From positions 19,109 to 83,108 of the forward strand of contig CAYRQJ010000004.1 of the NCBI GenBank assembly GCA_964426555.1: 64,000 bases of DNA, in the 5' to 3' direction. Of this stretch, positions 2,342 to 53,717 are shown one piece after another (the first letter of the stretch is position 1; each line of letters starts with the position of its first letter). The translations under genes and the position numbers were made by a program. The stretch is from an uncultured Candidatus Saccharibacteria bacterium. GTDB lineage: Bacteria; Patescibacteriota; Minisyncoccia; Phycocordibacterales; UBA9973. The notes beneath the pieces are model-generated. The model was not told where the DNA came from. It searched no databases and saw only the letters and a program-made list of their open reading frames with translations.

Positions 2342-2418
2342 ATATATTACAACTATAGCACAAAAGGCCTATTTTTTAAATGGTGGTATAGATTTTATAA
2401 AATGCTACAATATACAAA

Positions 2419-21482: not shown

Positions 21483-21490
21483 AGGAGTAA

Positions 21491-23762: not shown

Positions 23763-23767
23763 AGGCC

Positions 23768-24271: not shown

Positions 24272-24291
24272 CCGTCATTTAAAATTACAAG

Positions 24292-24322
24292 GCCCGTTCA
24301 AGAAATTGAACGGGTTTTTATT
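24292..24322 (+). terminator. rho-independent terminator
   Basis: CCCGTTCAAGAAATTGAACGGG hairpin followed by TTTTTATTTG. Confidence 0.7.
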
Positions 24323-24375
24323 TGATTTTTTGAATTTGTGTGATATTATATAAAAGAAAAAAATAAAATAAAACT

Positions 24376-33116: not shown

Positions 33117-35194
33117 TAGATATCTAGATTTGCGTATTTGGCATTGGTTTGAATAAAAGATTTTCTTGGGGCAACTTCGCTACCCATTAACATATCAAAT
33201 ATATTGTCAGCTGCTTCAGCATCGTCTACTTGGACTTGCTTAAGAATTCTGCGAGCAGGGTCCATTGTTGTTTCCCATAGTTCTTCAGAATTCATTTCTC
33301 CGAGACCTTTATAACGTTGAATATGGAATTTTGTAGCGGCTTTTTTCTTTGTTTCTTCAGACTCTTCGCCTTCTAATTCTACTACTTCGTCACTATCTTC
33401 AGATTCTATAACTACAGCATCTGGAACTTTGCCAACAACAGCGTCTCGTTCTTCGTCTGAATATGCATACCAAACTTCTTTACCTTTTTTAATTTTGAAA
33501 AGTGGTGGTTGAGCAATGTAAATAAATCCCCCGTCAATTAGCGGACGGAAATATCTATAGAACAATGTCAGAATTAGTGTACGAATGTGTGCACCATCCA
33601 CGTCGGCATCGGTTGCTATGATTATTTTATGGTAGCGTAATTTTGAAATATCAAAAGTATCACCAATAGCACAACCCATTGCAACAACTAAATTTTTAAT
33701 TTGTTCACTGGCTAACATTTTATCCAGTCGTGCTCTTTCAATATTTAGAATCTTTCCACGCAGTGGCAAAATTGCTTGAGTACGACGGTCACGTCCCATT
33801 TTTGCAGTACCACCCGCAGAATCTCCCTCTACAATAAATATTTCAGATTCTTCAGCAGATTTTGTTTGACAGTCAGCAAGCTTACCTGGCAATGTCATGC
33901 CTTCTAATGCTCCTTTACGAAGCACAGAATCTTTTGCAGCTTTAGCGGCTTTACGTGCACGCATAGCCAGCAGTGATTTATTGATTATAGCTTTAGCTTC
34001 ATCAGGATTTTCTTCAAAGAAACTGTTTAATGCGTCACCAAATACAGTGTTAACTGCACCCTGAGCTTCAGTAGAACCCAATTTACCTTTGGTTTGGCCT
34101 TCAAATTGGATTTCTGGCATCTTGATAGACACCACCGCAACAAGACCTTCTAGTACGTCATCTCCTGTAAAACCACCGTCAGCTTCTTTTGCAAGACCAG
34201 CTTTTTTAGCATAGGAATTTATAATACGAGTTAAGGCAGTTTTGAAACCAGTAACATGAGTTCCGTATTCGGGGTTATTTATATTGTTAGCAAAAGCAAC
34301 AATTCTAGTAGACACATCATCAACATAACGAAATACTACTTCTACGGCTACATTATCAATTTCTCTTTCAATATGAAAAATAGAAGAATGAATTGGTTTT
34401 TGATATTCAGTATAATGCTCCACTAATGAACGCAATCCCCCTTCGAAATAATAAGTATGACTTGGTAATTCTAAATTTAAATCTTTAAACCAAAAGACAT
34501 CATCTATATTTGTTTTTTTGCCAGACAAAACATCAGCCCCCATTTCACGAGCGTCAATTGTAGTAATGCGTAAACCTTTTACAAGGTAAGCTTGCTGACG
34601 AAAATGATTTACAATAGTTGTTAAACTAAAATTTGTTGTTTCTTTAAAAATTTCTGCGTCAGGTTGAAAAGTAATAATTGTTCCGCGAAGTTTTGATTTT
34701 TCAACTTGTTTTACATTGGCTTTTTTAATACCTTTTGAATATTCTTGAACATATTTACCACCTTCACGATGTACTACTGCCTGAGTATATACAGACAATG
34801 CATTTACCACAGACGCACCCACACCGTGCAGACCTCCGGAAACTTTATATCCAGATTCATCTCCACCAAATTTACCACCAGCATGCAGTGTAGTCATTAC
34901 AGTTTCCAGTGCAGAAACTTTTGTTTTAGAATGAATTCCTACTGGAATACCACGACCATTGTCGGCAACACGAATACGGTTACCAGGTAGTAGTACTACT
35001 TCGATATTATTACATTCACCGGCCATGGCTTCGTCACGAGAGTTGTCAAAAATTTCCCATACAAGGTGGTGTAGACCTTCGGGGCCAGTAGAACCAATGT
35101 ACATTCCGGGACGGCGACGAACTGGTTCTAATCCTTCTAGAACTGAAATTTCATCAGCTCCATAGTTCTTTTTTGATGTGTTTTTTTCTGCCAT
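33116..35194 (-). CDS. gyrB: DNA gyrase subunit B
   Basis: GHKL ATPase GLHHLVWEIFDNSRDEAMAG, TOPRIM EGDSAGG, LILTLFYRY; stop overlaps pyk start by 1 nt. Confidence 0.95.
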   Translation of the reverse strand: MAEKNTSKKNYGADEISVLEGLEPVRRRPGMYIGSTGPEGLHHLVWEIFDNSRDEAMAGECNNIEVVLLPGNRIRVADNGRGIPVGIHSKTKVSALETVMTTLHAGGKFGGDESGYKVSGGLHGVGASVVNALSVYTQAVVHREGGKYVQEYSKGIKKANVKQVEKSKLRGTIITFQPDAEIFKETTNFSLTTIVNHFRQQAYLVKGLRITTIDAREMGADVLSGKKTNIDDVFWFKDLNLELPSHTYYFEGGLRSLVEHYTEYQKPIHSSIFHIEREIDNVAVEVVFRYVDDVSTRIVAFANNINNPEYGTHVTGFKTALTRIINSYAKKAGLAKEADGGFTGDDVLEGLVAVVSIKMPEIQFEGQTKGKLGSTEAQGAVNTVFGDALNSFFEENPDEAKAIINKSLLAMRARKAAKAAKDSVLRKGALEGMTLPGKLADCQTKSAEESEIFIVEGDSAGGTAKMGRDRRTQAILPLRGKILNIERARLDKMLASEQIKNLVVAMGCAIGDTFDISKLRYHKIIIATDADVDGAHIRTLILTLFYRYFRPLIDGGFIYIAQPPLFKIKKGKEVWYAYSDEERDAVVGKVPDAVVIESEDSDEVVELEGEESEETKKKAATKFHIQRYKGLGEMNSEELWETTMDPARRILKQVQVDDAEAADNIFDMLMGSEVAPRKSFIQTNAKYANLDI

Positions 35195-35344: not shown

Positions 35345-35375
35345 CTAAATAAAACCCTATTTTGCAAGGGTTTTA
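35345..35375 (-). terminator. rho-independent terminator after the 1310-aa fibre-like gene
   Basis: Minus strand AAACCCTTGCAAAATAGGGTTT hairpin followed by TATTTAGTTTTT. Confidence 0.65.
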
Positions 35376-35389
35376 TTGGTTAATTAGAC

Positions 35390-38300
35390 TTATATTACAG
35401 GCTCTGGGGCTGGTTCAGGATCTGGTGTTGGTGCTGGATCAGGGTCAGGTGTAGGAGCTGGATCGGGCGTTGGAGTTGAGTCTGGTGTTGGGTCTGGAGT
35501 AGGCGTTGGATCTGGTGTTGGAGATAGATCAGGTGTTGGATTTGATGCAGGAGATGGTGTTATTCCACTTTGATTTACCATTTGTAAGAATTGCTCTTCG
35601 TTAACACAGACACTGCCAACACACAATTCTTTTGTTTGAACTTTATCTGCATTTATTAATTTAGTAAAGATTACTTCTATATTATTCCCCACATCTGCCA
35701 AGAATATCTTTATCTTATTTGCTAAACTATTTTCTTTTGTTGTATCAAGTGAAGATAAATCTGTAACTTTTAAATTAAGTTCTTGAATAGCATTTAGTGC
35801 AATCATTTGTAATTCAAGATTATATGAAACTGCATAGTATCCATTTTTTTCTTTAACTAAATCAGGGAAAACTTGTGCCATTTCTTGAGCGATTAAACCA
35901 ACTTGTCTTCCTGATACATAACGTAGTGTTCCACCCAAGCTTTCTATGTCTTCATTCCATTCAAATGATACTGGGCGAAGTTGCATAACTTTTTCTAAAG
36001 ATCCAGTTAGTGAAGTAATATTATGTTTTAATCTTTCGTCAGATGTACATGTCCCAGCAACTTGAGCGCCGGCTTCTCGGAAACAGTCATCAGTATTAAT
36101 ATCGGCTACAACGTCTAGACCGTAGTCGGGAGTAGTATCTCCAATACCGACTTTACCATCACTAATAATTGTCATTCTATCAGTACCTGTTGTGGTTGTG
36201 GTATTAGCCGCAGTATAAAAAGTAATTGTGGTTACAGCGTTTGTAAGTGAACTACCACCACCAATACCAAAATTAGTTACGGCACTACTTGATGTGTAAT
36301 TAAACAATGCTACTGGCTCTTCGGCATTTGTATAATGAGGACCAACGATACGGGCATTTTTATCAGTAACGTTAGTTCTTGTATTTAAAGTATTGTCAGC
36401 ACCCAGCATCATAGTTATACCACCATTACTAATATCTAATGGATATGAAGGAGTTGCGGTAAGAATACCTAGACGATTATTTGTATCATCCCAGAAGAAG
36501 TTTGAATTGTCTTGAGAAATTAAACCGCCTGTCCCAGTAAAAGGAACTGAGCCTGATGTTAATGTAGAAAATGTAATATTCCCAGATGATGTTATGCCAG
36601 TAGCGGCTGCTATTGCACCACTGGAATTGACTTGAAATAAATCACCATCACCAACAGTAAACTTTGCTGCAGGAGACGCGTCCCCTATACCAATATTCCC
36701 AGTAGACAATGTTGTACCTGTACCATCTATTCCAGTACCAAATATTAAGTTACCAATAGTCATCGTATTTGTAGATGTAGCCGTTGGAGCATCAATGTCG
36801 TAGCCGATGACAATGTTATATGAACCAGTAGTAATATTATTACCAGCTTGGTAACCAAAAAGAGAGTTACCATCTGCACCAGTAGCAAATAATCTTGTGG
36901 TATTATGTCCAACCGCAGTATTTCCACTTACTGTTGTATCCGCAACTGTTGCAACCCATGCATGTCCACCTATAACCGTATTATATGAGCCGAGATAGTT
37001 AGCCGTAAGTGCGTAAGTACCCAATGCGATGTTATAAGTTCCAGTACTTGTATTATTCCCTGAAGAATAACCTAGGGATGCATTGTTAGTTCCAGTTGTA
37101 ACACCAGAAAGTGCATATTCCCCAACACCACTATTGTAGCTTCCGGTTGATAAATTAAACAACGATTGCTGACCAACAGCAGTATTGTCGCTTCCTGTAG
37201 TATTGTAATACATACTTGCTTTACCCAACGCAGTATTTGCTTTCCCTGTTGTATTTGCAGCCATAGTATCTGCACCAAATGCAACATTTGAATGACCTGT
37301 GGTTAATGCAGACATTGTATTTTTACCAACAGCACTATTATAGCTTCCTTCCCATACTAATGTAGCAGTTGAGCCTATGGTAAAGTTTCCGGAACTTTCT
37401 CCAACGAAAGTATTTCCCCCCGAAGTTGTCACTGCTCCATTATTCCCATAGTTAAAATCATGGATAAATCTATTTCCATCTTTATAAATAATTCCGTATT
37501 GTGCAGCAAAACTTGTTGCTGGCATTCGGAAGTTTTTTGTAATTTCAAGTTGTTCATTTGGTGTAGCTATACCTATACCAATGTTACCAGTAGACAACGT
37601 AGCATTGACCCCATCAATACCTGTTCCAAAAATAAGATTACCGATATTTAAAGTATTATCCTGAGTATAGTCTTGCGGTTCAATATCGTAGCCAATCATT
37701 ATGTTATGGTCTGCTGAAGACCAGCCAAGACCTGCGTTTTTACCAATAAATATATTGTTACTACCAGAGAAAGCCCCGCCTCCACCAGCAGATTGTCCTA
37801 AAATTGTATTGCCTGAACCAGAAGCATGAGAAGCAGCACTATCTCCAATACCTATATTGTCTGAACCGGTAGAATTACCAAGAGCGCCACTACCGATCGC
37901 AACACCGCTACCACCAGTGGCATCCTGAAGAGCTCCATATCCTATTGCAATAGCTCCGCTACCATCATAATTCTCTAATGCACCATGACCTATTGCGATA
38001 GAATAAGCTGCACCAGTTCCATTTTTTAACGCGTCAACACCTATTGCAACATTAGACTCACCATAATCATTGCTATATAAAGTACGATAACCAATAGCCA
38101 CATTATTATAACCCGAATCATTTACATTAAAAGCTTGATAACCAAAAATAGTATTTGTATTATCATTACTTGGTCCACGCCCAAGTCGTAAACCATTTAT
38201 TAATGCTTCTCCGTTTACATCTAATTTTGCTAATGGAGTCGCAGTACCAATACCAATACTTCCTGTTGAAACCGTTGTGCCTGTACCGTCGATTCCTGTA

Positions 38301-39322
38301 CCAAAAATAAGATTACCAATAGATAGTTGGTTATCACCACCAGCTGTTGGTAAATCAATATCGTAGCCAATAATAATATTATTGTCAGCACCAGTAGTTA
38401 AATTATTTGCGGCTTGGTAACCAATAAAAATATTATTTGCAAATACATCACCACCTTCATTTGCATTAGTACCAGCTCTGGCACCCAAAACAACATTATA
38501 TCCACCAGAAGTGTTACTATATAATCCTCTATTTCCAAAAATAGTATTATAACTACCGGTATTAAAAGGTGCAGAAGAACTACCAACCGCAGTATTGTAA
38601 CTACCGCTAATATTGTAAAGTAAAGACAAACTTCCAACACCAACATTGGCTTGTCCTGTTGTGTTGTTGTATAAAGCACCGTTACCAGCAACAGCTGTAT
38701 TATCTACTCCGGTTGTATTATTTTTTAAAGCGTTATATCCAATACCCGCATTTGAATATCCTGTGGTTACACTATTTAAAGCATTTTTACCAAATCCAGA
38801 ATTATAGCTTCCTTGCCAAGAACTAGTAGCCGTAGAACCCATTGTTAAATTACCAGCACTTTCACCAACAAAAGTACTTGACCCCTCAGTTGTCACTGTT
38901 CCATTGTTTCCATAAGTAAAATTATGAATGAACGTATTTGCCCCTTTGTAAATTATTCCGTATTGTGCAGCAAAACTTGTATCTGGTATTCGGAAGTTTT
39001 TTGTAATTTCTAATTGTTGATTTGGCGTATTCGTCCCTATACCTAATCTATTATTTGTATCATCCCAAAAGAAGTTTGTATTATCTTGTGTTAATGTAGA
39101 ACCATCAGAAAAAGCTATAGAGCCAGTTGTAAGAGTTGGTAGAATTGATACATAACAGTTAGCATCACCAGGTGCACAAGTAGGATCAAGCATAGCGTCA
39201 GATGGTATATATGGTAAACCAAAAGCTACTCCAGTACCAAAAATACTAAATATCACTGTGGCAATAATGAATTGTTTATTGTATTTAAGCCACTTTATCA
39301 TAACTATAATCTTGTCCCACAA
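35390..39322 (-). CDS. giant repetitive cell-surface fibre-like protein (1310 aa) with C-terminal intramolecular-chaperone (Peptidase_S74-like) domain and Pro/Thr-rich tail
   Basis: N-terminal signal-anchor identical to paralog; arrays of about 14-15 aa NTA[VI]G..[AS]L.[NS]N repeats (beta-helix/fibre-like); C-terminal TSDERLKHNI...LRPVSFEWNED...VGLIAQEMAQVFPDLV; ends TPTPDPTPD... Confidence 0.85.
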   Translation of the reverse strand: MWDKIIVMIKWLKYNKQFIIATVIFSIFGTGVAFGLPYIPSDAMLDPTCAPGDANCYVSILPTLTTGSIAFSDGSTLTQDNTNFFWDDTNNRLGIGTNTPNQQLEITKNFRIPDTSFAAQYGIIYKGANTFIHNFTYGNNGTVTTEGSSTFVGESAGNLTMGSTATSSWQGSYNSGFGKNALNSVTTGYSNAGIGYNALKNNTTGVDNTAVAGNGALYNNTTGQANVGVGSLSLLYNISGSYNTAVGSSSAPFNTGSYNTIFGNRGLYSNTSGGYNVVLGARAGTNANEGGDVFANNIFIGYQAANNLTTGADNNIIIGYDIDLPTAGGDNQLSIGNLIFGTGIDGTGTTVSTGSIGIGTATPLAKLDVNGEALINGLRLGRGPSNDNTNTIFGYQAFNVNDSGYNNVAIGYRTLYSNDYGESNVAIGVDALKNGTGAAYSIAIGHGALENYDGSGAIAIGYGALQDATGGSGVAIGSGALGNSTGSDNIGIGDSAASHASGSGNTILGQSAGGGGAFSGSNNIFIGKNAGLGWSSADHNIMIGYDIEPQDYTQDNTLNIGNLIFGTGIDGVNATLSTGNIGIGIATPNEQLEITKNFRMPATSFAAQYGIIYKDGNRFIHDFNYGNNGAVTTSGGNTFVGESSGNFTIGSTATLVWEGSYNSAVGKNTMSALTTGHSNVAFGADTMAANTTGKANTALGKASMYYNTTGSDNTAVGQQSLFNLSTGSYNSGVGEYALSGVTTGTNNASLGYSSGNNTSTGTYNIALGTYALTANYLGSYNTVIGGHAWVATVADTTVSGNTAVGHNTTRLFATGADGNSLFGYQAGNNITTGSYNIVIGYDIDAPTATSTNTMTIGNLIFGTGIDGTGTTLSTGNIGIGDASPAAKFTVGDGDLFQVNSSGAIAAATGITSSGNITFSTLTSGSVPFTGTGGLISQDNSNFFWDDTNNRLGILTATPSYPLDISNGGITMMLGADNTLNTRTNVTDKNARIVGPHYTNAEEPVALFNYTSSSAVTNFGIGGGSSLTNAVTTITFYTAANTTTTTGTDRMTIISDGKVGIGDTTPDYGLDVVADINTDDCFREAGAQVAGTCTSDERLKHNITSLTGSLEKVMQLRPVSFEWNEDIESLGGTLRYVSGRQVGLIAQEMAQVFPDLVKEKNGYYAVSYNLELQMIALNAIQELNLKVTDLSSLDTTKENSLANKIKIFLADVGNNIEVIFTKLINADKVQTKELCVGSVCVNEEQFLQMVNQSGITPSPASNPTPDLSPTPDPTPTPDPTPDSTPTPDPAPTPDPDPAPTPDPEPAPEPVI

Positions 39323-39412
39323 ATAAAGAGTAATCTTGATTTATGTTATGTATATTATACCAAAAAAATCGTTTAATCTTAAACGATTTTTGGGGTTAAA
39401 TGGGGATAAGTA
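39024..39412. repeat. about 390-bp direct repeat (copy B): 5' coding end plus promoter/terminator of fibre gene B, about 95% identical to 44916-45305
   Basis: Direct comparison of the two DNA stretches shows near-identity including the first about 290 coding nt and about 100 nt upstream. Confidence 0.85.
39340..39392 (-). promoter_or_regulatory. terminator hairpin (AAATCGTTTAAGATTAAACGATTT + U7) fused to extended -10 promoter (TGGTATAAT) for fibre gene B
   Basis: On minus strand: perfect 11-bp stem, 7 T, then TGgTATAAT with TTTAAG 18 nt upstream; gene start about 30-40 nt downstream. Confidence 0.6.
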
Positions 39413-39431
39413 ATGAGAGAAATTAGCTAAA

Positions 39432-42400
39432 TTATTCGGTTGTTGTTTCAGTATTAATTACTGGGTCTTCGTTAACTGTTTGGGTTGGTATTTCAGGAAT
39501 AGGTGGTGTTTCAACAGTTGAATTATCAGTATTTTCTTCAATATTTTGGTTCTCTTGTGTAGTATCTGTATTTGGTACTGGGTCAGGTGTTGGGGTTGGT
39601 TCAGGAGTTGAATCAGGAGTTGGTGTTACGTTTTGTGATTGTAATAGCTGTTGTAATTCTTGTTTTGTAATACAAACATCATCAATACAAAGTTTTTTAG
39701 TGTAAACTTCGTCAACAAAAATTGATTGAATTCCGTTCCCTACATCACTCAAGAATATTTTTATACGACTAGCTAAACTATTTTCTTTTGCGGGGTCAAG
39801 AGAATTTAAATCGGTAATTTTTAAATCTAAGTCTTGAATACTTTTAACAATTAATGGAGTTAGTTGAGAATAAGAAACTTTCCAATACTCATCTGGGTTA
39901 GACGGAATGATAACAGCATCAGGGTATGCATTGTACAATTCTTGAGCAACAAAACCATGAACACGAACATTTGGCTCTCGAATATATGAAAAATCTCTTA
40001 CCTTTATATCCATTAAGTTTCTTAGACTTAGACCAGTATCAACAATGTCTTGCTTTAGTCTTTGGTCAGAAGTTGTGGTTAATGTTAGTGTACCGGTTAC
40101 CAAAGACACAGTTCCAACATCACCACCGTCACCATCGTTAAACTGAATCCATTTACCAGCACTAGGAGTGTCTGCTCCGGCTTGATTGACTATACCAAAA
40201 CGGTAAAAATCATTACAATCGATTAAAAAATTTGAAGAATAATCAGCAGCATCCTCAAGAACAGTAAGCCTGTGTGTACCCAAAGTCACACTTCCGATTG
40301 TTGTTTTACCTAGGTTGGTCCAGTTCCCAGCGTCATCTAAATATGCAATAGATGATGAACTAGAATTAAGAGCATGTATGTTTTTTGTTGATGATGTTGC
40401 ACCTTGACCTTTAATCATTAATCTTGTGCTACCTATACCACCATTACTAGTATTACCAATAAAAGCATTACCATTAACATCAAAATCATTAACCGGAGAC
40501 ATTGATACACCAACTCTTCCACCAAAATATGCTGCATAATTATTAGTAGCTCCAGTAGGAACCTCAACATAAAGGCCGTACGCATTTGTTGCACTCGATA
40601 CAGAACTACCTTGTTGAATATACAACCCAATTGAATTTGTTATACTTGCATTTGTACTTTTAATAGGGGCGCCAGCAATAGCCATTGTTGCAGCATTAGT
40701 TATAGTACTTGCCCCCACAAATGAATATGTTGGTTGAGTTATTAATACTTCTCTTTGGGTTGCTATTGCACCTGTTGCCCATTGTCTACCCGCAGTAGTT
40801 AAAGTTAGTGATGGAATCTCAGTTGAGGCTGTTTGATTTGTATTAACAGCACCAGTGTACACAATACCTTTTAATGCACCAGTACTAGTAATAGTCTGAG
40901 CAACCTCAAGTTTGCCAGTGGGTGCAGCTATGCCTATACCAATATTTCCTGTTGATACAGTTGTGCCAGTTCCATCTATTCCAGTACCAAAGATAAGGTT
41001 ACCAATGGATAATTGGCTATCAGTTGTTGCGGATGGTGCATCGATATTATAACCAATTACAATATTTTTAGAACCGGTAGTTAATGCATCACCAGCTTGC
41101 CAACCTAATAAAATATTATAATCACCACTTGTCGCAGCAAGTCCTGAACCATAGCCAATAGATGTATTACCAGTACCCGATGTTGAAGTAAACAAGGCTT
41201 TATAACCAATCCCAATTGATTGATCTGCTGTAGTATTGGTTAATGATTGACTACCAAATACTTGATTACCAATACCCACATTGTCAGTACCGATCGTTTC
41301 AACTGCTGCATGATACCCTAAATAGACGTTATCAGAACTAGTTGTAATTGCTGCACCTGCTAAATATTCACTGGCCATAGCTTCTTGCCCAATTACAACA
41401 TTTCGAAAACCAACAAGTGAATATCCTGCGGCTGAACCCATCAACACATTTCCTCCACTGGTACCACTGGTTGTAATATTGAACCCAGAAGATTCTCCAA
41501 TAGAGATGTTATTACTACTTGTTGAAATATTTCTAAGTGCATCTTTATTTATAGCTACGTTAGAATAACCAGAACTAAGTGGTTGCGCAGCAGCAGCTCC
41601 AATTGCAACATTAAACTGTCCACTAGACAGATTTAACATTGTATTGTCACCAATAGAAATATTTCTATCTCCAGTTGCTGAAGAGTTAAGAGAATTACCA
41701 ATACCGATATTTGAATATGGAGTTACTCCTGTAGATGCAGTTCTGTGAATATACCAGTCACCTGCAACGCTACGAATTCCTGTATCCATAGTTGCTGTTG
41801 TAAATCTTAGTTCAGCGGTAGAAGAAGAGAGTGTGACAGATGCACCAGTTGTACTAACAGCTCCAGTTGAAGTAACTTGGAATTGTGATGTTGATCCAAC
41901 AGAAAACATATTTGTTGGGCTTGTATTCCCACCAATATTTACAAGCCCGCCAGTAGATATTCGCATTCTTTCAACACCAAGTGCTCCATTGTTTGTTCCA
42001 AAAACAATATTTCCACTATAAGTATTAATAACAAAATTAGTTACAGCTCCGCCTATTTGAAAACCAGCTTGACCTGTAGCACCTAAAGACATCTCATTAT
42101 AACCACCACTGGAACCATTTATAAAAAATTTTGCATAGTTTGAACCACTACCACCATTTGCATTGTATAAAGTTAAATCTGGAGTCCCAGTGGTTGATGT
42201 GTTTTCAATTAATATTTTTGTTTGTGTAGCATCGGCGTCTTTAATTAACAAAGCTTCTCCTGGAGCAGTAGCTCCAGTACCTATACCTACACGACCAGTA
42301 TCACGAAAAGTAACAAAAGCAGTACCGTTATCTTTAATTAAGAAATCCCCAGTTGAAGTTAAATCAACAAACGAATCAGTAGAAGTACCAGCAGTTAATG

Positions 42401-45215
42401 AATATATTCCAGATGATGTTATACCAGTCGCAGCTGCTATTGCACCAGATGAATTGACTTGAAATAAATCACCATCACCAACTGTAAACTTTGCTGCAGG
42501 ACTTGCATCACCGATACCCACATTCCCAGTTGAAAGTGTAGTCCCTGTGCCATCTATTCCTGTACCAAAGATTAAGTTACCAATAGACATTTGACCATCT
42601 GTCGTATTGCTTGGTGCGTCAATGTCATAACCAATGACAATATTCTTGTCACCAGTTGTTATTGCATTACCAGCAGCATAACCAATAGCGATGTTGTTTG
42701 CAGCGTCCCCCATACTTTGACCAGCACCAAAACCTATCAAAGTGTTGCCATCAGCAGCTAAATTTAGGCCAGCAATAGTACCAATTATTGTTGAATAATT
42801 AATTGCAGCGGTTGTTTGTCTTGCTGCACCATATCCAATAACTACATTGTCAGCACCAGCTCCATCACGAAGAACGGCTGAACCAATGGCTACGTTTTCA
42901 TTACCCGAACTTGTAAACATTGCTCTGTAACCCATAACTATGTTATCACTATCTCCAGCTAATCCTGATCCGGCTTCATAACCAATAGCAATGTTATCAC
43001 TACCTGTTGTAGAAATACCATTCATGGCACTTGTACCAATAGCAATGTTTTGCGATGCTGTTGTTAATGCATTTAAAGACGATACACCAATACCAATGTT
43101 ATTAGCTCCTTCGGTTACAAGTCTTAAACCACTAATACCCACATTATTACCACCACTTGTTGTGTCTTGTCCTGAATATTGACCAACACCACCTGCGCGA
43201 CCGGCAAAGAAATTGTTTGAGCCTGTTGTTACAGCACTAAATGTTCCCTGGTTTAAAACAGTATTAAGTAATGTTGTATCAAAACGAAGAGCAAATACTC
43301 CACCTATTTTATATCCATTAGTTAATACTCCAGTACTTGATGTGTTAAAGAAACCCGTAGCGCTACTAATCACAGCAGAAGCCCCTGAGCCTGACAATGT
43401 TAGTGCCGCACCAGTTGAATCTAATGTTTTTGCTCCGGCAAAAGTTTGTGTACCTGTTGTAACAACACCACCAAATGAAGCGGAAGCTGGTTCAAGATTT
43501 AAAGTAACCCCAGAAATAGTAGCGCCATTTGAATTTGCTGATGAACCAATAACCCCAATAGTTGTAACACCACCAGATGCTGCTGCCCATGTTAATGTTC
43601 CTGATCCATTATTTGTTAAAACATAACCACTGGCTCCAGCCTGAGATCCGGGCCATGTATAAGTAACATTATTTATTTTTACGATATTCCCAGATGAATC
43701 AACTTGGAATAGGTCTCCATTACCTACGGTTAATAATGAGGCAGGAGTAGTATCCCCAATACCTAAATTACCGGAATTAATTACTCGAATTTTTTCAGTT
43801 AAAGAACCACTAGTTGTTGTTGAGAAAGAAATATATCCAGTATTATTTACTCGGTTTTGGAAATAAAATTGCCCAGCATTAGAAGCTGCAGATTGACTGA
43901 ATCCTCCAACACGATAATTCACAGTTCCTGGCCATGCTCCTTCTCGTAAATCAAGTAATGTTTGATTTGTCCCTGCAACATCTTGCATTACAAATTGAGC
44001 TGCACCACTTGTTGCCCCTGCACGAATAGTCACATCTCCACTGGCTGTCATAACGTCTAATCTTACATTAGGTGATGCAATACCTATACCGATATTTCCA
44101 CTGGAAACTGATGTCCCTGTTCCATCAATACTTGTACCAAAGATTAAGTTACCAATAGATAATTGATTATCACCACTGGCAGTTGGTAAATCAATATCGT
44201 AGCCGATAATAATATTATTACCCGCACCTGATGTTGCATTATTAGCAGCTTGATATCCAATAAAAATATTATTGTCTAAATTACCAGTCCCACCAGTATT
44301 ATAACCAGAATCATATCCCAAGGAAACATTATTACTACCACCAGTATTTGAACGTAATGCATTTAACCCCATTCCAATATTGTAATTACCAGTTGAATTA
44401 TTGTATAAAACATTTCCCCCTATACCAGTATTATATAAACCAGTATTGTTATACAAAGCATTTGTACCGACGGCAGTATTATACCCAGTTGTACTATTTG
44501 AATACAGAGCATTGACCCCAACTGCAGTATTTCCACTACTAGTAGTATTATTTCTTAAGGCATATACACCAAACGCAGCATTAGATACTCCACTACTATT
44601 ATTTTCTAAAGACTGTTTACCAACAGCTGTATTGTCTACACCACCAATATTTGAATATAACGTCCTGTATCCAACAGCAGTACTACCATTCCCTGTATTT
44701 GTATAAAGAGCAGTATATCCAATTGCAGTATTTTGAAGAGCAGAAACTGAACTATATAAAGTCTGATAACCCACGGCAGTATTTTGACTACCATTAGTAT
44801 TTGAATTTAAAGTTTGATAACCCACTGCGGTATTTGTAGCAACACTACCAGCACCAAGACCAACACGAATATTATTTAATAAAACATCAGATCCAGAAAC
44901 TTCAAGTTTATAAGTAGGCGTATTCGTTCCTATCCCTAATCTATCATTTGTATCATCCCAAAAGAAATTTGTATTATCTTGTGTTAATGTAGAACCATCA
45001 GAAAAAGCTATAGACCCGGTAGTAAGCGTTGGTAGAATTGACACATAACAGTTAGCATCACCTGGTGCACATGTAGGATCAAGCATAGCGTCAGATGGTA
45101 TATATGGTAAACCAAAAGCTACTCCAGTACCAAAAATACTAAAGATCACTGTGGCAATAATGAATTGTTTATTGTATCTAAGCCACTTTATCATAACTAT
45201 AATCTTGTCCCACAA
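39432..45215 (-). CDS. giant repetitive cell-surface fibre-like protein (1927 aa), paralog of 35390..39322
   Basis: N-terminal 95 aa identical to paralog except 2 residues; long NTA[VI]G/NN[IV][SA][IL]G repeat arrays; shared 40-aa block NIGIGDASPAAKFTVGDGDLFQVNSSGAIAAATGITSSG; C-terminal TTSDQRLKQDIV...VRDFSYI...HGFVAQELYNAYPDAV chaperone domain; PT/E-rich tail. Confidence 0.85.
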   Translation of the reverse strand: MWDKIIVMIKWLRYNKQFIIATVIFSIFGTGVAFGLPYIPSDAMLDPTCAPGDANCYVSILPTLTTGSIAFSDGSTLTQDNTNFFWDDTNDRLGIGTNTPTYKLEVSGSDVLLNNIRVGLGAGSVATNTAVGYQTLNSNTNGSQNTAVGYQTLYSSVSALQNTAIGYTALYTNTGNGSTAVGYRTLYSNIGGVDNTAVGKQSLENNSSGVSNAAFGVYALRNNTTSSGNTAVGVNALYSNSTTGYNTAVGTNALYNNTGLYNTGIGGNVLYNNSTGNYNIGMGLNALRSNTGGSNNVSLGYDSGYNTGGTGNLDNNIFIGYQAANNATSGAGNNIIIGYDIDLPTASGDNQLSIGNLIFGTSIDGTGTSVSSGNIGIGIASPNVRLDVMTASGDVTIRAGATSGAAQFVMQDVAGTNQTLLDLREGAWPGTVNYRVGGFSQSAASNAGQFYFQNRVNNTGYISFSTTTSGSLTEKIRVINSGNLGIGDTTPASLLTVGNGDLFQVDSSGNIVKINNVTYTWPGSQAGASGYVLTNNGSGTLTWAAASGGVTTIGVIGSSANSNGATISGVTLNLEPASASFGGVVTTGTQTFAGAKTLDSTGAALTLSGSGASAVISSATGFFNTSSTGVLTNGYKIGGVFALRFDTTLLNTVLNQGTFSAVTTGSNNFFAGRAGGVGQYSGQDTTSGGNNVGISGLRLVTEGANNIGIGVSSLNALTTASQNIAIGTSAMNGISTTGSDNIAIGYEAGSGLAGDSDNIVMGYRAMFTSSGNENVAIGSAVLRDGAGADNVVIGYGAARQTTAAINYSTIIGTIAGLNLAADGNTLIGFGAGQSMGDAANNIAIGYAAGNAITTGDKNIVIGYDIDAPSNTTDGQMSIGNLIFGTGIDGTGTTLSTGNVGIGDASPAAKFTVGDGDLFQVNSSGAIAAATGITSSGIYSLTAGTSTDSFVDLTSTGDFLIKDNGTAFVTFRDTGRVGIGTGATAPGEALLIKDADATQTKILIENTSTTGTPDLTLYNANGGSGSNYAKFFINGSSGGYNEMSLGATGQAGFQIGGAVTNFVINTYSGNIVFGTNNGALGVERMRISTGGLVNIGGNTSPTNMFSVGSTSQFQVTSTGAVSTTGASVTLSSSTAELRFTTATMDTGIRSVAGDWYIHRTASTGVTPYSNIGIGNSLNSSATGDRNISIGDNTMLNLSSGQFNVAIGAAAAQPLSSGYSNVAINKDALRNISTSSNNISIGESSGFNITTSGTSGGNVLMGSAAGYSLVGFRNVVIGQEAMASEYLAGAAITTSSDNVYLGYHAAVETIGTDNVGIGNQVFGSQSLTNTTADQSIGIGYKALFTSTSGTGNTSIGYGSGLAATSGDYNILLGWQAGDALTTGSKNIVIGYNIDAPSATTDSQLSIGNLIFGTGIDGTGTTVSTGNIGIGIAAPTGKLEVAQTITSTGALKGIVYTGAVNTNQTASTEIPSLTLTTAGRQWATGAIATQREVLITQPTYSFVGASTITNAATMAIAGAPIKSTNASITNSIGLYIQQGSSVSSATNAYGLYVEVPTGATNNYAAYFGGRVGVSMSPVNDFDVNGNAFIGNTSNGGIGSTRLMIKGQGATSSTKNIHALNSSSSSIAYLDDAGNWTNLGKTTIGSVTLGTHRLTVLEDAADYSSNFLIDCNDFYRFGIVNQAGADTPSAGKWIQFNDGDGGDVGTVSLVTGTLTLTTTSDQRLKQDIVDTGLSLRNLMDIKVRDFSYIREPNVRVHGFVAQELYNAYPDAVIIPSNPDEYWKVSYSQLTPLIVKSIQDLDLKITDLNSLDPAKENSLASRIKIFLSDVGNGIQSIFVDEVYTKKLCIDDVCITKQELQQLLQSQNVTPTPDSTPEPTPTPDPVPNTDTTQENQNIEENTDNSTVETPPIPEIPTQTVNEDPVINTETTTE

Positions 45216-45305
45216 ATTAAGAATAATCTTGATTTATGTTATGTATATTATACCAAAAAAATCGTTTAAGATTAAACGATTTTTGGGTAAATGTGGGGAT
45301 AAATA
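44916..45305. repeat. about 390-bp direct repeat (copy A), partner of 39024-39412
   Basis: See partner; includes 5' coding end of gene A and its upstream terminator/promoter module. Confidence 0.85.
45233..45285 (-). promoter_or_regulatory. terminator hairpin (pheT) fused to extended -10 promoter for fibre gene A
   Basis: Same AAATCGTTTAAGATTAAACGATTT hairpin + T-run + TGGTATAAT as at 39340-39392. Confidence 0.6.
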
Positions 45306-45326: not shown

Positions 45327-47228
45327 TTATCTTATTTCAAGCCCGGAAATTTGCTTTAAATTAGCTTCTATTTTTTGCATAACTTCAGCTATTTCTGTGT
45401 CGGTTAAAGTCCTGTCTTTTGCTTGAAAAACCATTCGGAATGCGTAAGAATTTTTACCATCTTTACTAAATTTATCAAACAAGTTTGGGCCTACTACAAC
45501 AAGTTCATTGATACTATTTTTTATATTTTCTAAAACTACATCATCTGTTATATCAACTGGCACCCATACTGAAATGTCGCGAGTTATAAATGGGTATTGG
45601 GACCAAGGAGTAAAGGTTCTAGTTTCTAGCTTATAGTTGCTAGTTGAAGCGGAATCAGTGAATGGAATATTACTCACAACCTCGCCTGCTCTATCTGTTA
45701 AATTTTTAGTAAGAATAGATGCAAAATCTATTAAATTAGATTCTTGCACTTCGCTTTTATTCGCATATGCAACATGTATTTCTTCAGTATCATTTATAAA
45801 TACAGTTCCAATTTCAAAGATTTTTATTTCATTTTGGTTCAACAATGGTGCATTATTTTTGTTTAACTCGTAAGACGTCCTTAACCCATCGGTTAAATTG
45901 GTTCGTAGAAAATCTTTACCTTTGGCACCACGAGCTATTTGAATATCCCCTTTTTTACAAAAAGAATATGTCATAACTTCGTTATAACCATTTGATATTA
46001 AATCATTTCTAATGCTTTCTATTTTATTGTATTGTTCATTTTCTTTTGCAGTAAAAATATTTTTTATATCAGGCATTATTGGGACTAATTTGTCGTAACC
46101 ATAAATACGTCCAATTTCTTCTACCATATCTATTTCACTTTCTAAATCAAGACGAAAAACAGGTGCTGTTACTTTAAATGTACCAGCATTAAAAACATAT
46201 TCATATTTATAATTTTTTAAAATATTTTCTATATCAACATCTGTAATACTGCTACCCAATTTTTTATTTACCAAATTTGATGTGAAAGAAATTATTCTTT
46301 CAACTTGGGCTACTGGATACACATCTACAACTTCTTCTAAGACTGCATCGGGACACATCTCGCAAATCAATGCCGATAATTCAAGCATTCCAAAATCACA
46401 TAATTCTGGGGTTAAATTATTTTCAAATCTTTTTGCAGCATCAGATAGTACTCCTATTCTACGAGCGGTTTTACGAATACAAATTGGGTCAAAATTCCCT
46501 ACTTCTAAAACAATGTCCACGGTATCATCCTGGATTCCTGAATTTACTCCACCCTTTATGCCACCCAGTGCTAATGTCTCACCACCAGAATTAGTGATTA
46601 CTAAATCAGTTTCTTTTAGTTTTGCAACTATGGCGTCGCGCCCAACTAAAGTTAGCTCTTCATCCACCCCTGCATTTGTAATAACAATTTTTTGATCAGA
46701 AAATTTACGTAAATCAAAAGCATGTGTTGGTTGCCCGCAATTTAGCATTACTAAATTTGTAGCGTCTACAATGTTATTAATACTGCGTTGTCCTGCATTT
46801 TCCAAATGTTTTACTACCCAATCAGGTGATGGCCCAACTTTAATATTGCGCACTATTCTAGCAGAATATCTACGACAAGAATTTGTTTGAATATCAATTT
46901 GTAAATTAGTTTTTTGTATTTCTTTCTTTGCTAAAATTTTGTCATAGCCATCTTTTGTTTCAACAAAGTTTAAACCAAGTTGACCAGAAATTTCCAAAGC
47001 TACACCTTTGTGAGAAAGTAAATCATGCGCACGATTAGGTAAAATGTTTACATCCAATATCCAATCTGAAATCTCGTTAGAGGCAGGATCTGTTTCAATA
47101 GATCCGTCGGCTCTAATCGGGACTAATCCTTCTACTTCCGTAAGATGGTACGTTAAAACATCGTGCAGTTTTTCTGCATCTGGAGCATCGGGTATATACC
47201 ATTTTAACCAGTTATAAGATATTTTCAT
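45327..47228 (-). CDS. pheT: phenylalanyl-tRNA synthetase beta subunit (short, 633 aa)
   Basis: MKISYNWLKWYIP N-terminus, B3/4 and B5 regions; lacks N-terminal tRNA-binding domain present in the 795-aa E. coli protein. Confidence 0.9.
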   Translation of the reverse strand: MKISYNWLKWYIPDAPDAEKLHDVLTYHLTEVEGLVPIRADGSIETDPASNEISDWILDVNILPNRAHDLLSHKGVALEISGQLGLNFVETKDGYDKILAKKEIQKTNLQIDIQTNSCRRYSARIVRNIKVGPSPDWVVKHLENAGQRSINNIVDATNLVMLNCGQPTHAFDLRKFSDQKIVITNAGVDEELTLVGRDAIVAKLKETDLVITNSGGETLALGGIKGGVNSGIQDDTVDIVLEVGNFDPICIRKTARRIGVLSDAAKRFENNLTPELCDFGMLELSALICEMCPDAVLEEVVDVYPVAQVERIISFTSNLVNKKLGSSITDVDIENILKNYKYEYVFNAGTFKVTAPVFRLDLESEIDMVEEIGRIYGYDKLVPIMPDIKNIFTAKENEQYNKIESIRNDLISNGYNEVMTYSFCKKGDIQIARGAKGKDFLRTNLTDGLRTSYELNKNNAPLLNQNEIKIFEIGTVFINDTEEIHVAYANKSEVQESNLIDFASILTKNLTDRAGEVVSNIPFTDSASTSNYKLETRTFTPWSQYPFITRDISVWVPVDITDDVVLENIKNSINELVVVGPNLFDKFSKDGKNSYAFRMVFQAKDRTLTDTEIAEVMQKIEANLKQISGLEIR

Positions 47229-48051: not shown

Positions 48052-48702
48052 TTATCCGGCTATAAGTTCGTTAACTTTAGACATTGTAGTTCCAGTTACA
48101 ATACCGTCAGCTGTAATTTTGTTAGCAGTTTGGAATTTTTTAACCGCAGTTTCAGTCATTGGACCAAATGCACCGTCAGCTATGCCTGTTAAATATTTAT
48201 TATCAATTAAAAATTGTTGCAGTATTTTTACTTGTTCTCCTTTACTACCCTTTTTTAAAGTTTGAGTAATAGGACCAATAGCAATATCAGTTTCTTCTTC
48301 TACAACTACAGGTTTTACAACGTTTCCACTGGTTGGTATTTTAGTATCATTAGATATAACAGTTTCATTTGCATTACCATTCATAGTAATGGTTACATTG
48401 TCTTTTGTTTTAGTGTTAGCACTGTCTACTGTATTTTCTAAAGTATTTTGGTCTATTACTGTTTCTTCGTCTGTTGTTGGATTTATTTCATTACCAAAAG
48501 GGTCAGTAAGATTTGTTTCTTCTTCTACAACCGTAGCAGTCTTACTGCCAAATATTTTTTTAGACAAAGCCATTTCTGGATTAATCTTCAAATAAAAAGC
48601 TCCGAATGTTCCTGCACATAAGATAAGCAATAATACAATAATAAATGTTAGAGTTTTGTTTGACATAAGAAATAAAATACTTTTACTTTTATAGTATATC
48701 AC
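48052..48702 (-). CDS. membrane-anchored protein with C-terminal peptidoglycan-binding (PG_binding_1-like) domain
   Basis: N-terminal TM; C-terminal GSKGEQVKILQQFL...ADGAFGPMTETAVKKFQ...ADGIVTGTT. Confidence 0.7.
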   Translation of the reverse strand: MIYYKSKSILFLMSNKTLTFIIVLLLILCAGTFGAFYLKINPEMALSKKIFGSKTATVVEEETNLTDPFGNEINPTTDEETVIDQNTLENTVDSANTKTKDNVTITMNGNANETVISNDTKIPTSGNVVKPVVVEEETDIAIGPITQTLKKGSKGEQVKILQQFLIDNKYLTGIADGAFGPMTETAVKKFQTANKITADGIVTGTTMSKVNELIAG

Positions 48703-53700: not shown

Positions 53701-53717
53701 TAATTTTTAAAACAACA

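What the first reader, a model, noticed from the sequence alone, without database searches (positions are those of the whole stretch)
35390..45215. Tandem giant paralogous fibre-like surface proteins (1310 and 1927 aa) with beta-helix-type repeats and phage-tail-fibre-type C-terminal chaperone domains
Both proteins share a near-identical N-terminal 95 aa (signal-anchor MWDKIIVMIKWL.YNKQFIIATVIFSIFGTGVAFGLPYIP, then PTCAPGDANCY). Both carry long arrays of 14-15-aa NTA[VI]G..[ST]L..N-type repeats reminiscent of YadA-head, tail-fibre or beta-roll folds, and several identical internal blocks (GNLIFGTGIDGTGTTVSTGNIGIG; a shared 40-aa NIGIGDASPAAKF...GITSSG). Each ends with a Peptidase_S74-like intramolecular chaperone domain plus a Pro/Thr-rich tail. 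Together they occupy about 9.8 kb (15% of the window) immediately next to gyrB. In an organism with a reduced genome, such investment suggests a major cell-surface or host-attachment structure. This is the strongest candidate in the window for an undescribed system.
Basis: partly seen in the sequence, partly recalled or inferred. Interest (0 to 1): 0.85.

Follow-up and report, generated by a model that had tools for sequence, protein, structure and literature searches.

The report
Exported phage-fibre-like surface adhesins of Saccharibacteria
Two large neighbouring genes in a tiny-genome, probably epibiotic bacterium encode exported fibres built from phage tail-fibre and adhesin modules, which makes them good but untested candidates for how such bacteria grip their host cells; the protein family itself is already widespread and loosely annotated.

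Summary
Two intact minus-strand genes (35390-39322, 1310 aa; 39432-45215, 1927 aa) lie between gyrB and pheT. Their first 95 residues are 93/95 identical. Each has three repeat arrays and a C-terminal Peptidase_S74 domain with an invariant SDxxxK motif, followed by a Pro/Thr-rich tail.

Corrections:
- The repeat period is 17 aa, not 14-15.
- The leader looks like a cleavable Sec signal peptide rather than a signal-anchor.

The genes are native: GC3 matches the housekeeping genes and the window holds no phage genes. The pheT-fibre-gyrB locus recurs in related Saccharibacteria, but its fibre content differs completely between genomes. Cellular relatives carry a leader (39/69); viral ones do not (3/73).

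Best reading: Sec-exported, trimeric, self-cleaving surface fibres used for attachment. The closest studied system is the Bdellovibrio MAT fibres. It is not an undescribed system, because thousands of homologues are already labelled "tail fiber domain-containing protein". No role in Patescibacteria has been reported in the library searched. Function is inferred, not shown.

The parts
35390..39322 (-). FibA gene, 1310 aa from TTG (1303 aa from the ATG at codon 8)
   Evidence: ORF list; Pfam and PHROG hits
39432..45215 (-). FibB gene, 1927 aa from TTG. The public annotation starts at codon 8 (1920 aa, equal to P0001)
39354..39391 (-). Upstream of FibA: a hairpin (AAAAATCGTTTAAGATTAAACGATTTTT) followed by an extended -10 promoter-like site (TGGTATAAT)
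   Evidence: Sequence; promoter scan, 10/12 match with TG. The scan as a whole is not above chance, so this is weak evidence.
45247..45284 (-). Upstream of FibB: the same hairpin and TGGTATAAT element, duplicated
   Evidence: Sequence; alignment of the two 5' regions, 93% mean identity
39218..39322 (-). FibA leader, aa 1-35: basic n-region, hydrophobic core, then A-F-G before L36. Predicted Sec signal peptide.
   Evidence: Sequence; AxA-type ends conserved in orthologues; leaders enriched in cellular versus viral relatives
39023..39217 (-). FibA conserved mature N-terminal module, aa 36-100: Cys-loop DPTCAPGDANC (C49, C56) and the 'FFWDDTNNRLGIGTNTP' joint
   Evidence: 12 of 14 nucleotide differences from FibB are synonymous; the same module occurs in 14 metagenome loci
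38216..38878 (-). FibA array 1 of 17-aa repeats plus cap (aa 149-369)
37541..38155 (-). FibA array 2 plus cap (aa 390-594)
36653..37414 (-). FibA array 3 plus cap (aa 637-890)
36044..36652 (-). FibA distal region and tip before the cleavage site (aa 891-1093), with a second FFWDD joint at 942. Putative binding end.
   Evidence: The AF2 model has low confidence here.
35588..36043 (-). FibA S74 intramolecular chaperone (aa 1094-1245): S1094/K1099 in SDERLK, two long helices, then the Cys hairpin ELCVGSVCV
   Evidence: Pfam E=4e-16; Ser and Lys invariant in 29 sequences; pLDDT 75-95; Foldseek hits 7dc3, 3gw6, 3gud, 4uw8
35393..35587 (-). FibA Pro/Thr/Asp-rich tail (aa 1246-1310). No LPXTG motif and no hydrophobic end.
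35348..35377 (-). Terminator-like hairpin after FibA
45111..45215 (-). FibB leader (aa 1-35)
44916..45110 (-). FibB conserved mature N-terminal module (aa 36-100)
44052..44834 (-). FibB array 1 plus cap (aa 128-388), the most regular run of 17-aa repeats
43152..44051 (-). FibB non-repeat domain between arrays 1 and 2 (aa 389-688)
   Evidence: The only PDB similarity is the capping-loop motif of Bd2133.
42480..43151 (-). FibB array 2 plus cap (aa 689-912)
41712..42479 (-). FibB non-repeat domain between arrays 2 and 3 (aa 913-1168), with weak similarity to the Bd2133 beta-helix region
40902..41711 (-). FibB array 3 plus cap (aa 1169-1438)
40071..40901 (-). FibB tip region before the cleavage site (aa 1439-1715), unrelated to the FibA tip
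39636..40070 (-). FibB S74 intramolecular chaperone (aa 1716-1860): SDQRLK and the Cys hairpin KLCIDDVCI
   Evidence: Pfam E=1e-8
39435..39635 (-). FibB Thr/Pro/Glu-rich tail (aa 1861-1927)

Best explanation
FibA and FibB are native chromosomal genes of a Saccharibacteria-like (Patescibacteria) bacterium. They encode long modular fibres that are exported by the Sec pathway.

Each protein has, in order:
- a signal peptide, probably cleaved after AFG35;
- a conserved ~65-aa N-terminal module with a small Cys-loop, the likely cell-proximal attachment end;
- three arrays of 17-aa repeats that fold as YadA-like beta-rolls, each closed by a conserved ~55-aa cap ending in the GN[IV]GIGxxxPxxxLxV loop;
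- a variable distal tip;
- an S74 intramolecular chaperone.

By analogy with phage fibres and Bdellovibrio MAT fibres, the chaperone would drive trimerisation and then cut itself off at Ser1094 (FibA) or Ser1716 (FibB). This would release the chaperone together with its Pro/Thr-rich tail and expose the tip. The mature trimer would project from the cell and bind a surface structure, probably a glycan, on the host bacterium or another surface. The two genes offer two different tips and lengths behind the same export and anchoring module. The locus between pheT and gyrB is a hot spot where fibre modules are exchanged.

Shown here: gene integrity, domain composition, motifs, folds, native composition, synteny and variability, and the leader difference between cellular and viral relatives.

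Inferred: signal cleavage, trimerisation, autoproteolysis, surface anchoring, and host binding.
For: - S74: above the Pfam cut-off in both proteins. SDxxxK is present, with Ser and Lys invariant across 29 homologues. The confident part of the model matches the MyRF ICA domain, the K1F endosialidase chaperone, the GA-1 chaperone and the T5 fibre.
- Phage ancestry: PHROG tail-spike and tail-fibre families, 112 phage records at 27-35% identity, and 249 matching stretches in viral contigs.
- Export: an N-terminal hydrophobic leader is present in 39/69 cellular fibre ORFs but only 3/73 viral ones (Fisher p=1.7e-12), and in 74/120 database homologues. AxA-type leader ends are conserved. SecDF and a DsbA-like protein are encoded in the window.
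- Native origin: GC3 is 0.17-0.19, like the housekeeping genes, and codon-usage correlation is 0.88-0.90. The 64 kb window holds no phage, eCIS or reverse-transcriptase genes.
- Conserved locus, variable content: pheS-pheT-fibre(s)-gyrB recurs in L006 (gyrB 85% identical), L018, L014, L034, L158 and L161, with fibres of 584 to 1,384+ aa that align only in pieces. L035 (3,249 aa) shows the pheS-pheT side only.
- Constraint on the shared modules: 0 non-synonymous against 16 synonymous differences in the 38-aa block, and 2 against 12 in the first 100 codons.
- Precedent: Bdellovibrio MAT fibres have a signal peptide, a conserved N-domain, a trimeric shaft and S74 with SDxxxK. They are surface-displayed, self-cleave, and one binds prey glycans (PMC10769870). 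FibB shows weak sequence similarity to Bd2133 through the capping-loop motif.
Against: - There is no evidence of expression, surface location, trimerisation, cleavage or binding.
- The anchoring mechanism is unknown: no LPXTG, lipobox, C-terminal membrane segment or recognisable wall-binding domain.
- The tip regions and the N-terminal module were modelled with low confidence. The repeat-array model is only moderate (pLDDT about 60-79, pTM 0.57).
- The family also occurs in free-living bacteria such as Limnobacter, Bacteroidota and Acidobacteriota, so it is not specific to epibionts.
- The Tn-seq study of a cultivated Saccharibacterium named other adhesin types (VCBS, dockerin, FN3), not these (PMC10633639).
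- Promoter-like matches in the region are no more frequent than chance.
Confidence: 0.6

Rival explanations
1. They are general surface or envelope fibres (biofilm, particle or substrate adhesion, or an S-layer-like coat) with no role in recognising a specific host cell.
For: The same family occurs in many bacteria that are not known as epibionts, including Limnobacter, Saprospiraceae, Acidobacteriota and Sphingomonadaceae. YadA-like heads bind many kinds of ligand. The Tn-seq adhesins of a cultivated Saccharibacterium are of other types.
Against: The fibre content of the locus differs between genomes whose gyrB is 73-85% identical. Two different tips sit behind one leader. These patterns are more typical of specificity determinants than of a housekeeping coat. 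Among the 78 related genomic loci, 48 are Patescibacteria and 6 are Bdellovibrionales, but the search patterns came from the query, so this count is biased.
Confidence: 0.25
2. They are tail fibres of a prophage, a defective prophage, or a tailocin or eCIS particle encoded elsewhere in the genome. They would assemble in the cytoplasm and would not be displayed on the cell.
For: There is clear homology to phage tail-fibre and tail-spike families and to many viral contigs. S74 is a classical phage fibre feature.
Against: Both proteins have an N-terminal secretion leader, which viral relatives almost never have (3/73 against 39/69). No phage, sheath, tube, baseplate, terminase or integrase gene lies within 35 kb on one side and 19 kb on the other. 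Codon usage is native. The locus sits in a conserved housekeeping position across genomes.
Confidence: 0.07
3. The fibre shaft is only a carrier, and the released C-terminal fragment (chaperone, Cys hairpin and Pro/Thr-rich tail) is the functional product. This would parallel MyRF, where S74-type cleavage liberates an active fragment.
For: The post-chaperone Cys hairpin (KELCVGxVCVTxxEF) and the acidic Pro/Thr tail are conserved in Saccharibacteria orthologues. The best fold match is the MyRF ICA domain.
Against: The tail is low-complexity and varies in sequence and length. In phages and in Bdellovibrio, the released chaperone is a by-product.
Confidence: 0.04
4. The genes are decaying or non-functional repeats, or an assembly artefact of repetitive DNA.
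For: Repetitive genes are prone to misassembly. FibA read from Met8 is not in the protein collection, whereas FibB is.
Against: The uninterrupted ORFs of 1310 and 1927 codons occur in AT-rich DNA. Repeat copies are only 62-80% identical at the DNA level, too divergent to collapse in assembly. There is strong purifying selection on the shared modules. The catalytic motif is intact.
Confidence: 0.02

Closest known systems
Bdellovibrio bacteriovorus MAT (mosaic adhesive trimer) fibres, S74 subgroup, e.g. Bd3182 (Caulton et al. 2024, PMC10769870)
   Same: Both are chromosomal, not prophage, genes present in several copies. Both have a signal peptide, an N-terminal module conserved between paralogues, and a long modular beta-structured shaft with the recurring VG..P...L capping loop. 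Both have variable tips and a C-terminal S74 chaperone with SDxxxK. The lifestyle also requires contact with another bacterium. FibB has weak direct sequence similarity to Bd2133.
   Different: The N-terminal module here is ~65 aa with a Cys-loop, not the ~130-aa beta-rich MAT domain, and it shows no similarity to the N-termini of Bdellovibrionales relatives. The shaft contains three YadA-like 17-aa arrays. A Cys hairpin and a Pro/Thr-rich tail follow the chaperone. The organism probably has a Gram-positive-type envelope (it has a sortase), so anchoring must differ. No experimental data exist.
Phage tail fibres and tailspikes with a C-terminal intramolecular chaperone (K1F endosialidase 3gw6, T5 L-shaped fibre 4uw8, GA-1 appendage 3gud)
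   Same: They share the chaperone fold and the Ser-Lys motif. Repeat and cap modules are shared at 27-35% identity with fibres of Pelagibacter, cyanobacterial and Roseobacter phages. Both are built as mosaics.
   Different: The window proteins have a secretion leader. They lie among housekeeping genes, have native codon usage, and sit in a syntenic chromosomal locus. No virion is involved.
Trimeric autotransporter adhesins (YadA, UspA1, EibD, BoaA, CbpF)
   Different: There is no C-terminal YadA_anchor beta-barrel and no coiled-coil stalk. The repeat is 17 aa rather than 14. Trimerisation would be handled by S74 rather than by the anchor.
MyRF ICA domain (7dc3)
   Same: It is the best fold match to the chaperone domain (E=3e-5), and it uses the same self-cleaving trimerisation logic.
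   Different: It is a eukaryotic membrane-bound transcription factor and shares no fibre shaft.

Membership tests
Peptidase_S74 / intramolecular chaperone (ICA) domain | Profile match above the curated threshold | tested here: met
   PF13884 scores 59.3 bits (FibA 1094-1157) and 35.5 bits (FibB 1716-1768) against a cut-off of 22
Peptidase_S74 / intramolecular chaperone (ICA) domain | Catalytic Ser-Lys pair in an SDxxxK motif at the start of the domain | tested here: met
   SDERLK at 1094 and SDQRLK at 1716. Ser and Lys are invariant in the 29-sequence alignment.
Peptidase_S74 / intramolecular chaperone (ICA) domain | Chaperone fold as in the K1F, T5, GA-1 and MyRF structures | tested here: met
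   The AF2 model has pLDDT 75-95 over the domain. Foldseek hits: 7dc3 E=3e-5, 3gw6 E=1.5e-3, 3gud, 4uw8.
Peptidase_S74 / intramolecular chaperone (ICA) domain | Trimerisation-dependent self-cleavage at the Ser | not testable with these tools
   Needs protein expression and an S-to-A mutant
Bdellovibrio MAT superfamily (S74 subgroup) | N-terminal signal peptide | tested here: met
   Basic and hydrophobic leader ending in AFG; AxA-type ends in orthologues. No dedicated predictor was available.
Bdellovibrio MAT superfamily (S74 subgroup) | Conserved ~130-aa beta-rich N-terminal domain directly after the signal peptide | tested here: not met
   The conserved module here is ~65 aa with a Cys-loop. 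It shows no similarity to the N-termini of Bdellovibrionales relatives. The HD100 MAT N-domain sequences themselves were not available, so distant homology is not excluded.
Bdellovibrio MAT superfamily (S74 subgroup) | Long shaft with the recurring capping-loop motif V-G-G/N-x-x-x-P-x-x-x-L | tested here: met
   The GIGxxxPxxxL motif occurs 6 times in FibA and 5 times in FibB. It aligns to the same motif in Bd2133.
Bdellovibrio MAT superfamily (S74 subgroup) | Surface display and binding of another bacterium's surface | not testable with these tools
   Experimental
Trimeric autotransporter adhesins | YadA-like head (left-handed parallel beta-roll) | tested here: met
Trimeric autotransporter adhesins | C-terminal beta-barrel membrane anchor (YadA_anchor) | tested here: not met
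   No such Pfam hit; the C-terminus is S74 plus a Pro/Thr tail
Phage or prophage tail fibre (virion component) | Sequence homology to phage fibre proteins | tested here: met
Phage or prophage tail fibre (virion component) | Encoded within a phage or prophage structural gene cluster | tested here: not met
   All annotated neighbours are housekeeping genes, and the unannotated ORFs give no PHROG hits
Phage or prophage tail fibre (virion component) | No secretion signal (cytoplasmic assembly) | tested here: not met
   A leader is present. Only 3/73 viral relatives have one, against 39/69 cellular relatives.
Sortase-anchored (LPXTG) wall proteins | C-terminal LPXTG-type motif, hydrophobic segment and basic tail | tested here: not met
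   No LPXTG motif, and the tails end in acidic Pro/Thr sequence. A neighbouring Ice_binding-like protein does have MPNTG, a membrane segment and a basic tail.

The most novel reading that the evidence does not exclude
The pheT-gyrB fibre locus could be the host-range determinant of this Saccharibacteria lineage, and by extension of many Patescibacteria. In this reading, phage-derived, S74-matured trimeric fibres share one lineage-specific export and anchoring module (signal peptide plus PPxSxYxPGETLDPxCxPGDxNC). They are retargeted to new host cells by swapping shaft and tip modules at the conserved GIGxxxP joints. This would be the cellular equivalent of how phages change host range.
Probability: 0.35. 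Interest if true: 0.75.

Novelty: new variant of a known kind. Interest (0 to 1): 0.5.

Why it matters
How ultrasmall epibiotic Patescibacteria find and hold their host cells is largely unknown. Published work implicates type IV pili and a few unrelated adhesins (PMC12206443, PMC10633639).

These genes give concrete, testable candidates:
- a defined cleavage site for biochemistry;
- two distinct tips for glycan or cell-binding assays;
- a syntenic, variable locus that can be tracked in metagenomes to relate fibre type to host.

The finding also extends the idea of cell-surface fibres borrowed from phages beyond the predator Bdellovibrio. It adds a simple sequence rule, the presence of a secretion leader, that separates cellular from viral versions.

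Tried and rejected
- Prophage, tailocin or eCIS context: rejected. Pfam and PHROG scans of the other ORFs in the window found only housekeeping genes.
- Recent horizontal import: rejected on GC3 and codon usage.
- Recent gene conversion as the reason for the identical 38-aa block: rejected. The DNA differs at 16 of 114 positions, all synonymous. For the 5' leader and promoter (94% identical, with a sharp end after codon ~100), a more recent exchange remains possible.
- Diversity-generating retroelement: no reverse transcriptase in the window, and no template/variable-repeat pair among the repeats found.
- Sortase anchoring: no motif.
- PDB sequence searches of the tips and inter-array domains gave only the capping-loop match to Bd2133 and chance hits.
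- The hit of the FibA tail to chlorovirus P14 (6ncl) is a Cys-x4-Cys plus Pro-rich low-complexity match and was not pursued.
- A homologue search with the N-terminal 156 aa returned only short fragments matching the joint.
- Look-ups of the source contig and of FibA by exact sequence gave nothing.
- Bdellovibrionales loci were mostly truncated and could not settle homology of the N-domain.
- NCBIfam gave no meaningful hit.
- The literature searches found no paper linking S74 or MAT-type fibres to Patescibacteria. The library is incomplete, so this is not proof of absence.
Full report
**Observation**

The two ORFs are present exactly as described, on the minus strand: FibA at 35390-39322 (1310 aa) and FibB at 39432-45215 (1927 aa). 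They lie between pheT (45327-47228) and gyrB (33116-35194) and occupy 15.4% of the window. Open frames this long cannot arise by chance in 34% GC DNA. The first 95 residues are 93/95 identical. Both ORFs are listed from TTG, but database protein P0001 equals FibB residues 8-1927, so the public annotation starts at the ATG of codon 8.

**Anatomy**

Each protein begins with a basic and hydrophobic leader ending in A-F-G35. A conserved module follows, containing a Cys-loop (DPTCAPGDANC, C49/C56) and the joint FFWDDTNxRLGIGTNTP.

Each protein then carries three arrays of repeats with consensus N-[TIV]-[AV]-[IV]-G-x-x-[AS]-[LM]-x-x-N-[TS]-[TS]-G-x-x. The period is 17 residues (mode; range 15-18), not 14-15. 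Every array ends in the same ~55-aa cap (NIIIGYDIDxP...QLSIGNLIFGTGIDGTGTTxSTGNIGIGxxxPxxxLxV). At the DNA level, five of the six caps form one repeat family at 62-79% identity to the reference copy. FibB has two additional non-repeat domains between its arrays. The regions before the C-terminal domain, the presumed tips, are unrelated in the two proteins.

Both proteins end with a Peptidase_S74 domain (Pfam 59.3 and 35.5 bits, cut-off 22) that starts with SDERLK (1094) or SDQRLK (1716). After it come two long helices, a small Cys hairpin (ELCVGSVCV / KLCIDDVCI) and a 65-67-residue tail rich in Pro, Thr, Asp and Glu. There is no LPXTG motif and no C-terminal hydrophobic segment.

Each gene is preceded by the same hairpin plus TGGTATAAT element. 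Only the FibA copy passes the promoter scan, and promoter-like matches in the region are no more frequent than chance.

**Organism and context**

All annotated neighbours are housekeeping genes: pyk, gyrB, pheST, thrS, a sigma-70 factor, DnaG, SMC, RNase III, NusB, SecDF, an AddA-like helicase, and 5S/23S rRNA. Two large ORFs (7186-10821 and 10828-14103) were not scanned and are presumed to be rpoC and rpoB. The ORFs without a Pfam hit also have no PHROG hit. There is no phage, tail, eCIS or reverse-transcriptase gene.

The closest genomic relatives are Saccharibacteria MAGs. The gyrB in L006 is 85% identical and the pheS in L014 is 71% identical. The fibre genes have the same GC3 (0.17-0.19) and codon usage (r=0.88-0.90) as the housekeeping genes. 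Their slightly higher GC comes from second codon positions, that is, from Gly, Ala, Thr and Ser. They are therefore long-resident native genes.

**Relatives**

More than 3,400 database proteins match. Most are 1,000-2,300 aa and most carry S74. Where named, they are called 'tail fiber domain-containing protein' (Nomurabacteria, Paceibacteria, Parcubacteria, Limnobacter, Bacteroidota) or, by JGI, 'trimeric autotransporter adhesin'.

In species-representative genomes, 48 of 78 related loci are Patescibacteria, 6 are Bdellovibrionales and 7 are uncultured 'Gammaproteobacteria', some with genomes of about 1 Mb. The search patterns were derived from the query, so this tally is biased.

The repeats and caps are also homologous to real phage fibres. 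PHROG tail-spike, tail-fibre and virion-protein families match. So do 112 phage records at 27-35% identity and 249 stretches in viral contigs. The viral matches, however, start at about residue 61, after the leader and Cys-loop.

In a direct comparison of 5'-complete fibre ORFs, 39/69 from cellular genomes have an N-terminal hydrophobic leader, against 3/73 from viral contigs (Fisher p=1.7e-12). Among the 120 best database homologues, 74 have one. There are thus two populations of this protein kind, and the window genes belong to the exported, cellular one.

**Structure**

The AF2 model of FibA 930-1240 is confident over the chaperone (pLDDT 75-95) and poor over the tip. Foldseek matches the MyRF ICA domain (7dc3, E=3e-5), the K1F endosialidase chaperone (3gw6), the GA-1 chaperone (3gud) and the T5 fibre with its chaperone (4uw8). 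Ser1094 and Lys1099 are invariant in an alignment of 29 homologues.

The recurring loop GN[IV]GIGxxxPxxxLxV occurs 6 times in FibA and 5 times in FibB. It aligns to the same loop in the Bdellovibrio fibre Bd2133. It corresponds to the 'capping loop' consensus reported for MAT fibres, S74 proteins and MyRF (PMC10769870).

**Evolution of the locus**

The arrangement pheS-pheT-fibre(s)-gyrB recurs in related genomes and metagenomes, but the fibres differ:
- L006: at least 1,384 aa plus 690 aa.
- L018: 1,047 aa.
- L014: at least 869 aa.
- L034: 404 plus 1,006 aa.
- L035: 3,249 aa.
- L158 and L161: 629 aa.
- L025 and L159 carry tandem fibre pairs (584 plus 957 aa in L025) but without detected pheT or gyrB matches.

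These fibres align with FibA and FibB only in pieces at 30-75% identity, whereas gyrB is 71-85% identical. The L006 gene next to gyrB combines the window's leader (75%) with a FibB-like chaperone (65%) and a short middle, which makes it a mosaic.

A back-translated search for the Cys-loop peptide found 14 metagenome loci. They share the same mature N-terminus (AxA | (T/A)PPxSxYxPGETLDPxCxPGDxNC) in front of fibres of 419 to more than 1,000 aa.

Within the window, the 5' region is 94% identical from about 85 nt upstream to codon ~100, and it diverges abruptly right after the first GIGTNTP joint. The shared modules are under strong purifying selection. In the first 100 codons, 12 of 14 nucleotide differences are synonymous. 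In the identical 38-aa block, all 16 differences are synonymous.

**Mechanism proposed**

The following steps are inferred unless stated otherwise:
1. The proteins are exported through Sec. SecDF is encoded in the window, and a DsbA-like oxidoreductase that could form the Cys-loops is encoded at 2325-3251.
2. The leader is removed after G35.
3. The S74 domain brings three chains into register and then cleaves at Ser1094 or Ser1716, releasing the chaperone with its tail.
4. The mature trimer consists of three stacked YadA-like head segments separated by caps and, in FibB, by extra domains.
5. The conserved N-terminal module holds the fibre on the cell through an unknown partner, and the distal tip binds a target.

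The sequence shows the parts, their folds, the intact catalytic motif, the leader, and the pattern of conservation and variation. Cleavage, trimerisation, anchoring and the ligand are not shown.

**Comparison with known systems**

The closest studied system is the S74 subgroup of the Bdellovibrio MAT fibres. These have a signal peptide, a conserved N-domain, a long trimeric shaft, variable tips and S74 with SDxxxK. They are surface-displayed, Bd3182 self-cleaves, and Bd2439 binds Proteus glycans (PMC10769870). The logic is the same here.

Membership in that superfamily is not established, however. Its defining ~130-aa N-domain is not recognisable, and the N-termini of Bdellovibrionales relatives are unrelated.

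The proteins are not trimeric autotransporters, because there is no beta-barrel anchor. They are not virion components, because they have a leader, native context and native composition. They are not sortase substrates, although a neighbouring Ice_binding-like protein is one.

**Rivals**

- A general, non-host-specific adhesin or coat remains plausible (0.25), because the family also occurs in free-living bacteria.
- A particle-borne fibre encoded elsewhere is unlikely (0.07).
- A function for the released fragment (0.04) and non-functional or artefactual genes (0.02) are minor possibilities.

**Novelty and verdict**

The kind of thing is known: phage-derived, S74-capped, exported fibre adhesins, widely annotated as tail-fibre-domain proteins.

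What is new is the particular build:
- a lineage-specific leader and Cys-loop module;
- triple 17-aa YadA-like arrays;
- a post-chaperone Cys hairpin and tail;
- placement in a conserved but hypervariable locus of Saccharibacteria.

No role for such fibres in Patescibacteria was found in the literature searched, and that library is incomplete. I rate interest at 0.5. These are solid, testable candidates for epibiont-host attachment, but they are not a new category and they carry no functional evidence yet.

Noticed in passing
window 53110-55010 (minus strand): A sortase gene (53110-53700) lies next to a 430-aa Ice_binding-like protein. That protein has a signal peptide and a C-terminal MPNTG motif, a hydrophobic segment and a basic tail, so it is a probable sortase-anchored surface protein with a non-canonical sorting motif.
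   Followed up: partly
window 18267-21874 (minus strand): A 1071-aa ORF has no Pfam or PHROG hit and no obvious leader. It lies immediately downstream of a DUF5663 gene (21491-21874) on the same strand.
   Followed up: partly
window 22013-25572 (plus strand): Four consecutive ORFs (350, 234, 167 and 398 aa) have no Pfam or PHROG match.
   Followed up: partly
window 2325-3251 (plus strand): A DsbA/thioredoxin-like protein. It could form the disulfides in the conserved Cys-loops of exported proteins such as the fibres.
   Followed up: no
window 48052-48702 (minus strand): A small protein with an N-terminal hydrophobic segment and a PG_binding_1 domain, two genes upstream of the fibre locus. A role in holding fibres at the wall is conceivable but untested.
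   Followed up: no
L044, L045, L069, L078: Uncultured 'Gammaproteobacteria' MAGs (two with chromosomes of about 0.94-1.0 Mb) encode giant relatives of 3,100-4,500 aa with leaders and, in some, S74 motifs. These are very large fibres for such small genomes.
   Followed up: partly
window 35393-35660 (FibA aa 1227-1308): The Cys-x4-Cys hairpin plus Pro-rich tail gives a weak PDB hit to chlorovirus PBCV-1 capsid protein P14 (6ncl, E=3.5e-4). This is probably low-complexity similarity.
   Followed up: no
window 39362-39391 and 45255-45284: The same AT-rich hairpin followed by a T-run sits directly in front of the promoter-like element of each fibre gene. It could act as a terminator or insulator, so that each gene is transcribed on its own.
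   Followed up: partly
homologues P0003, P0004, P0006 and others: Many homologues carry a precomputed Pfam hit to PF26696. The local Pfam copy did not report this family, so its name and meaning are unknown here.
   Followed up: no
L159 1310-4725; L025 9995-14683: Other genomes also have tandem pairs of fibre genes with near-identical leaders but different bodies. This suggests that duplication followed by divergence is a recurrent feature of this locus type.
   Followed up: partly
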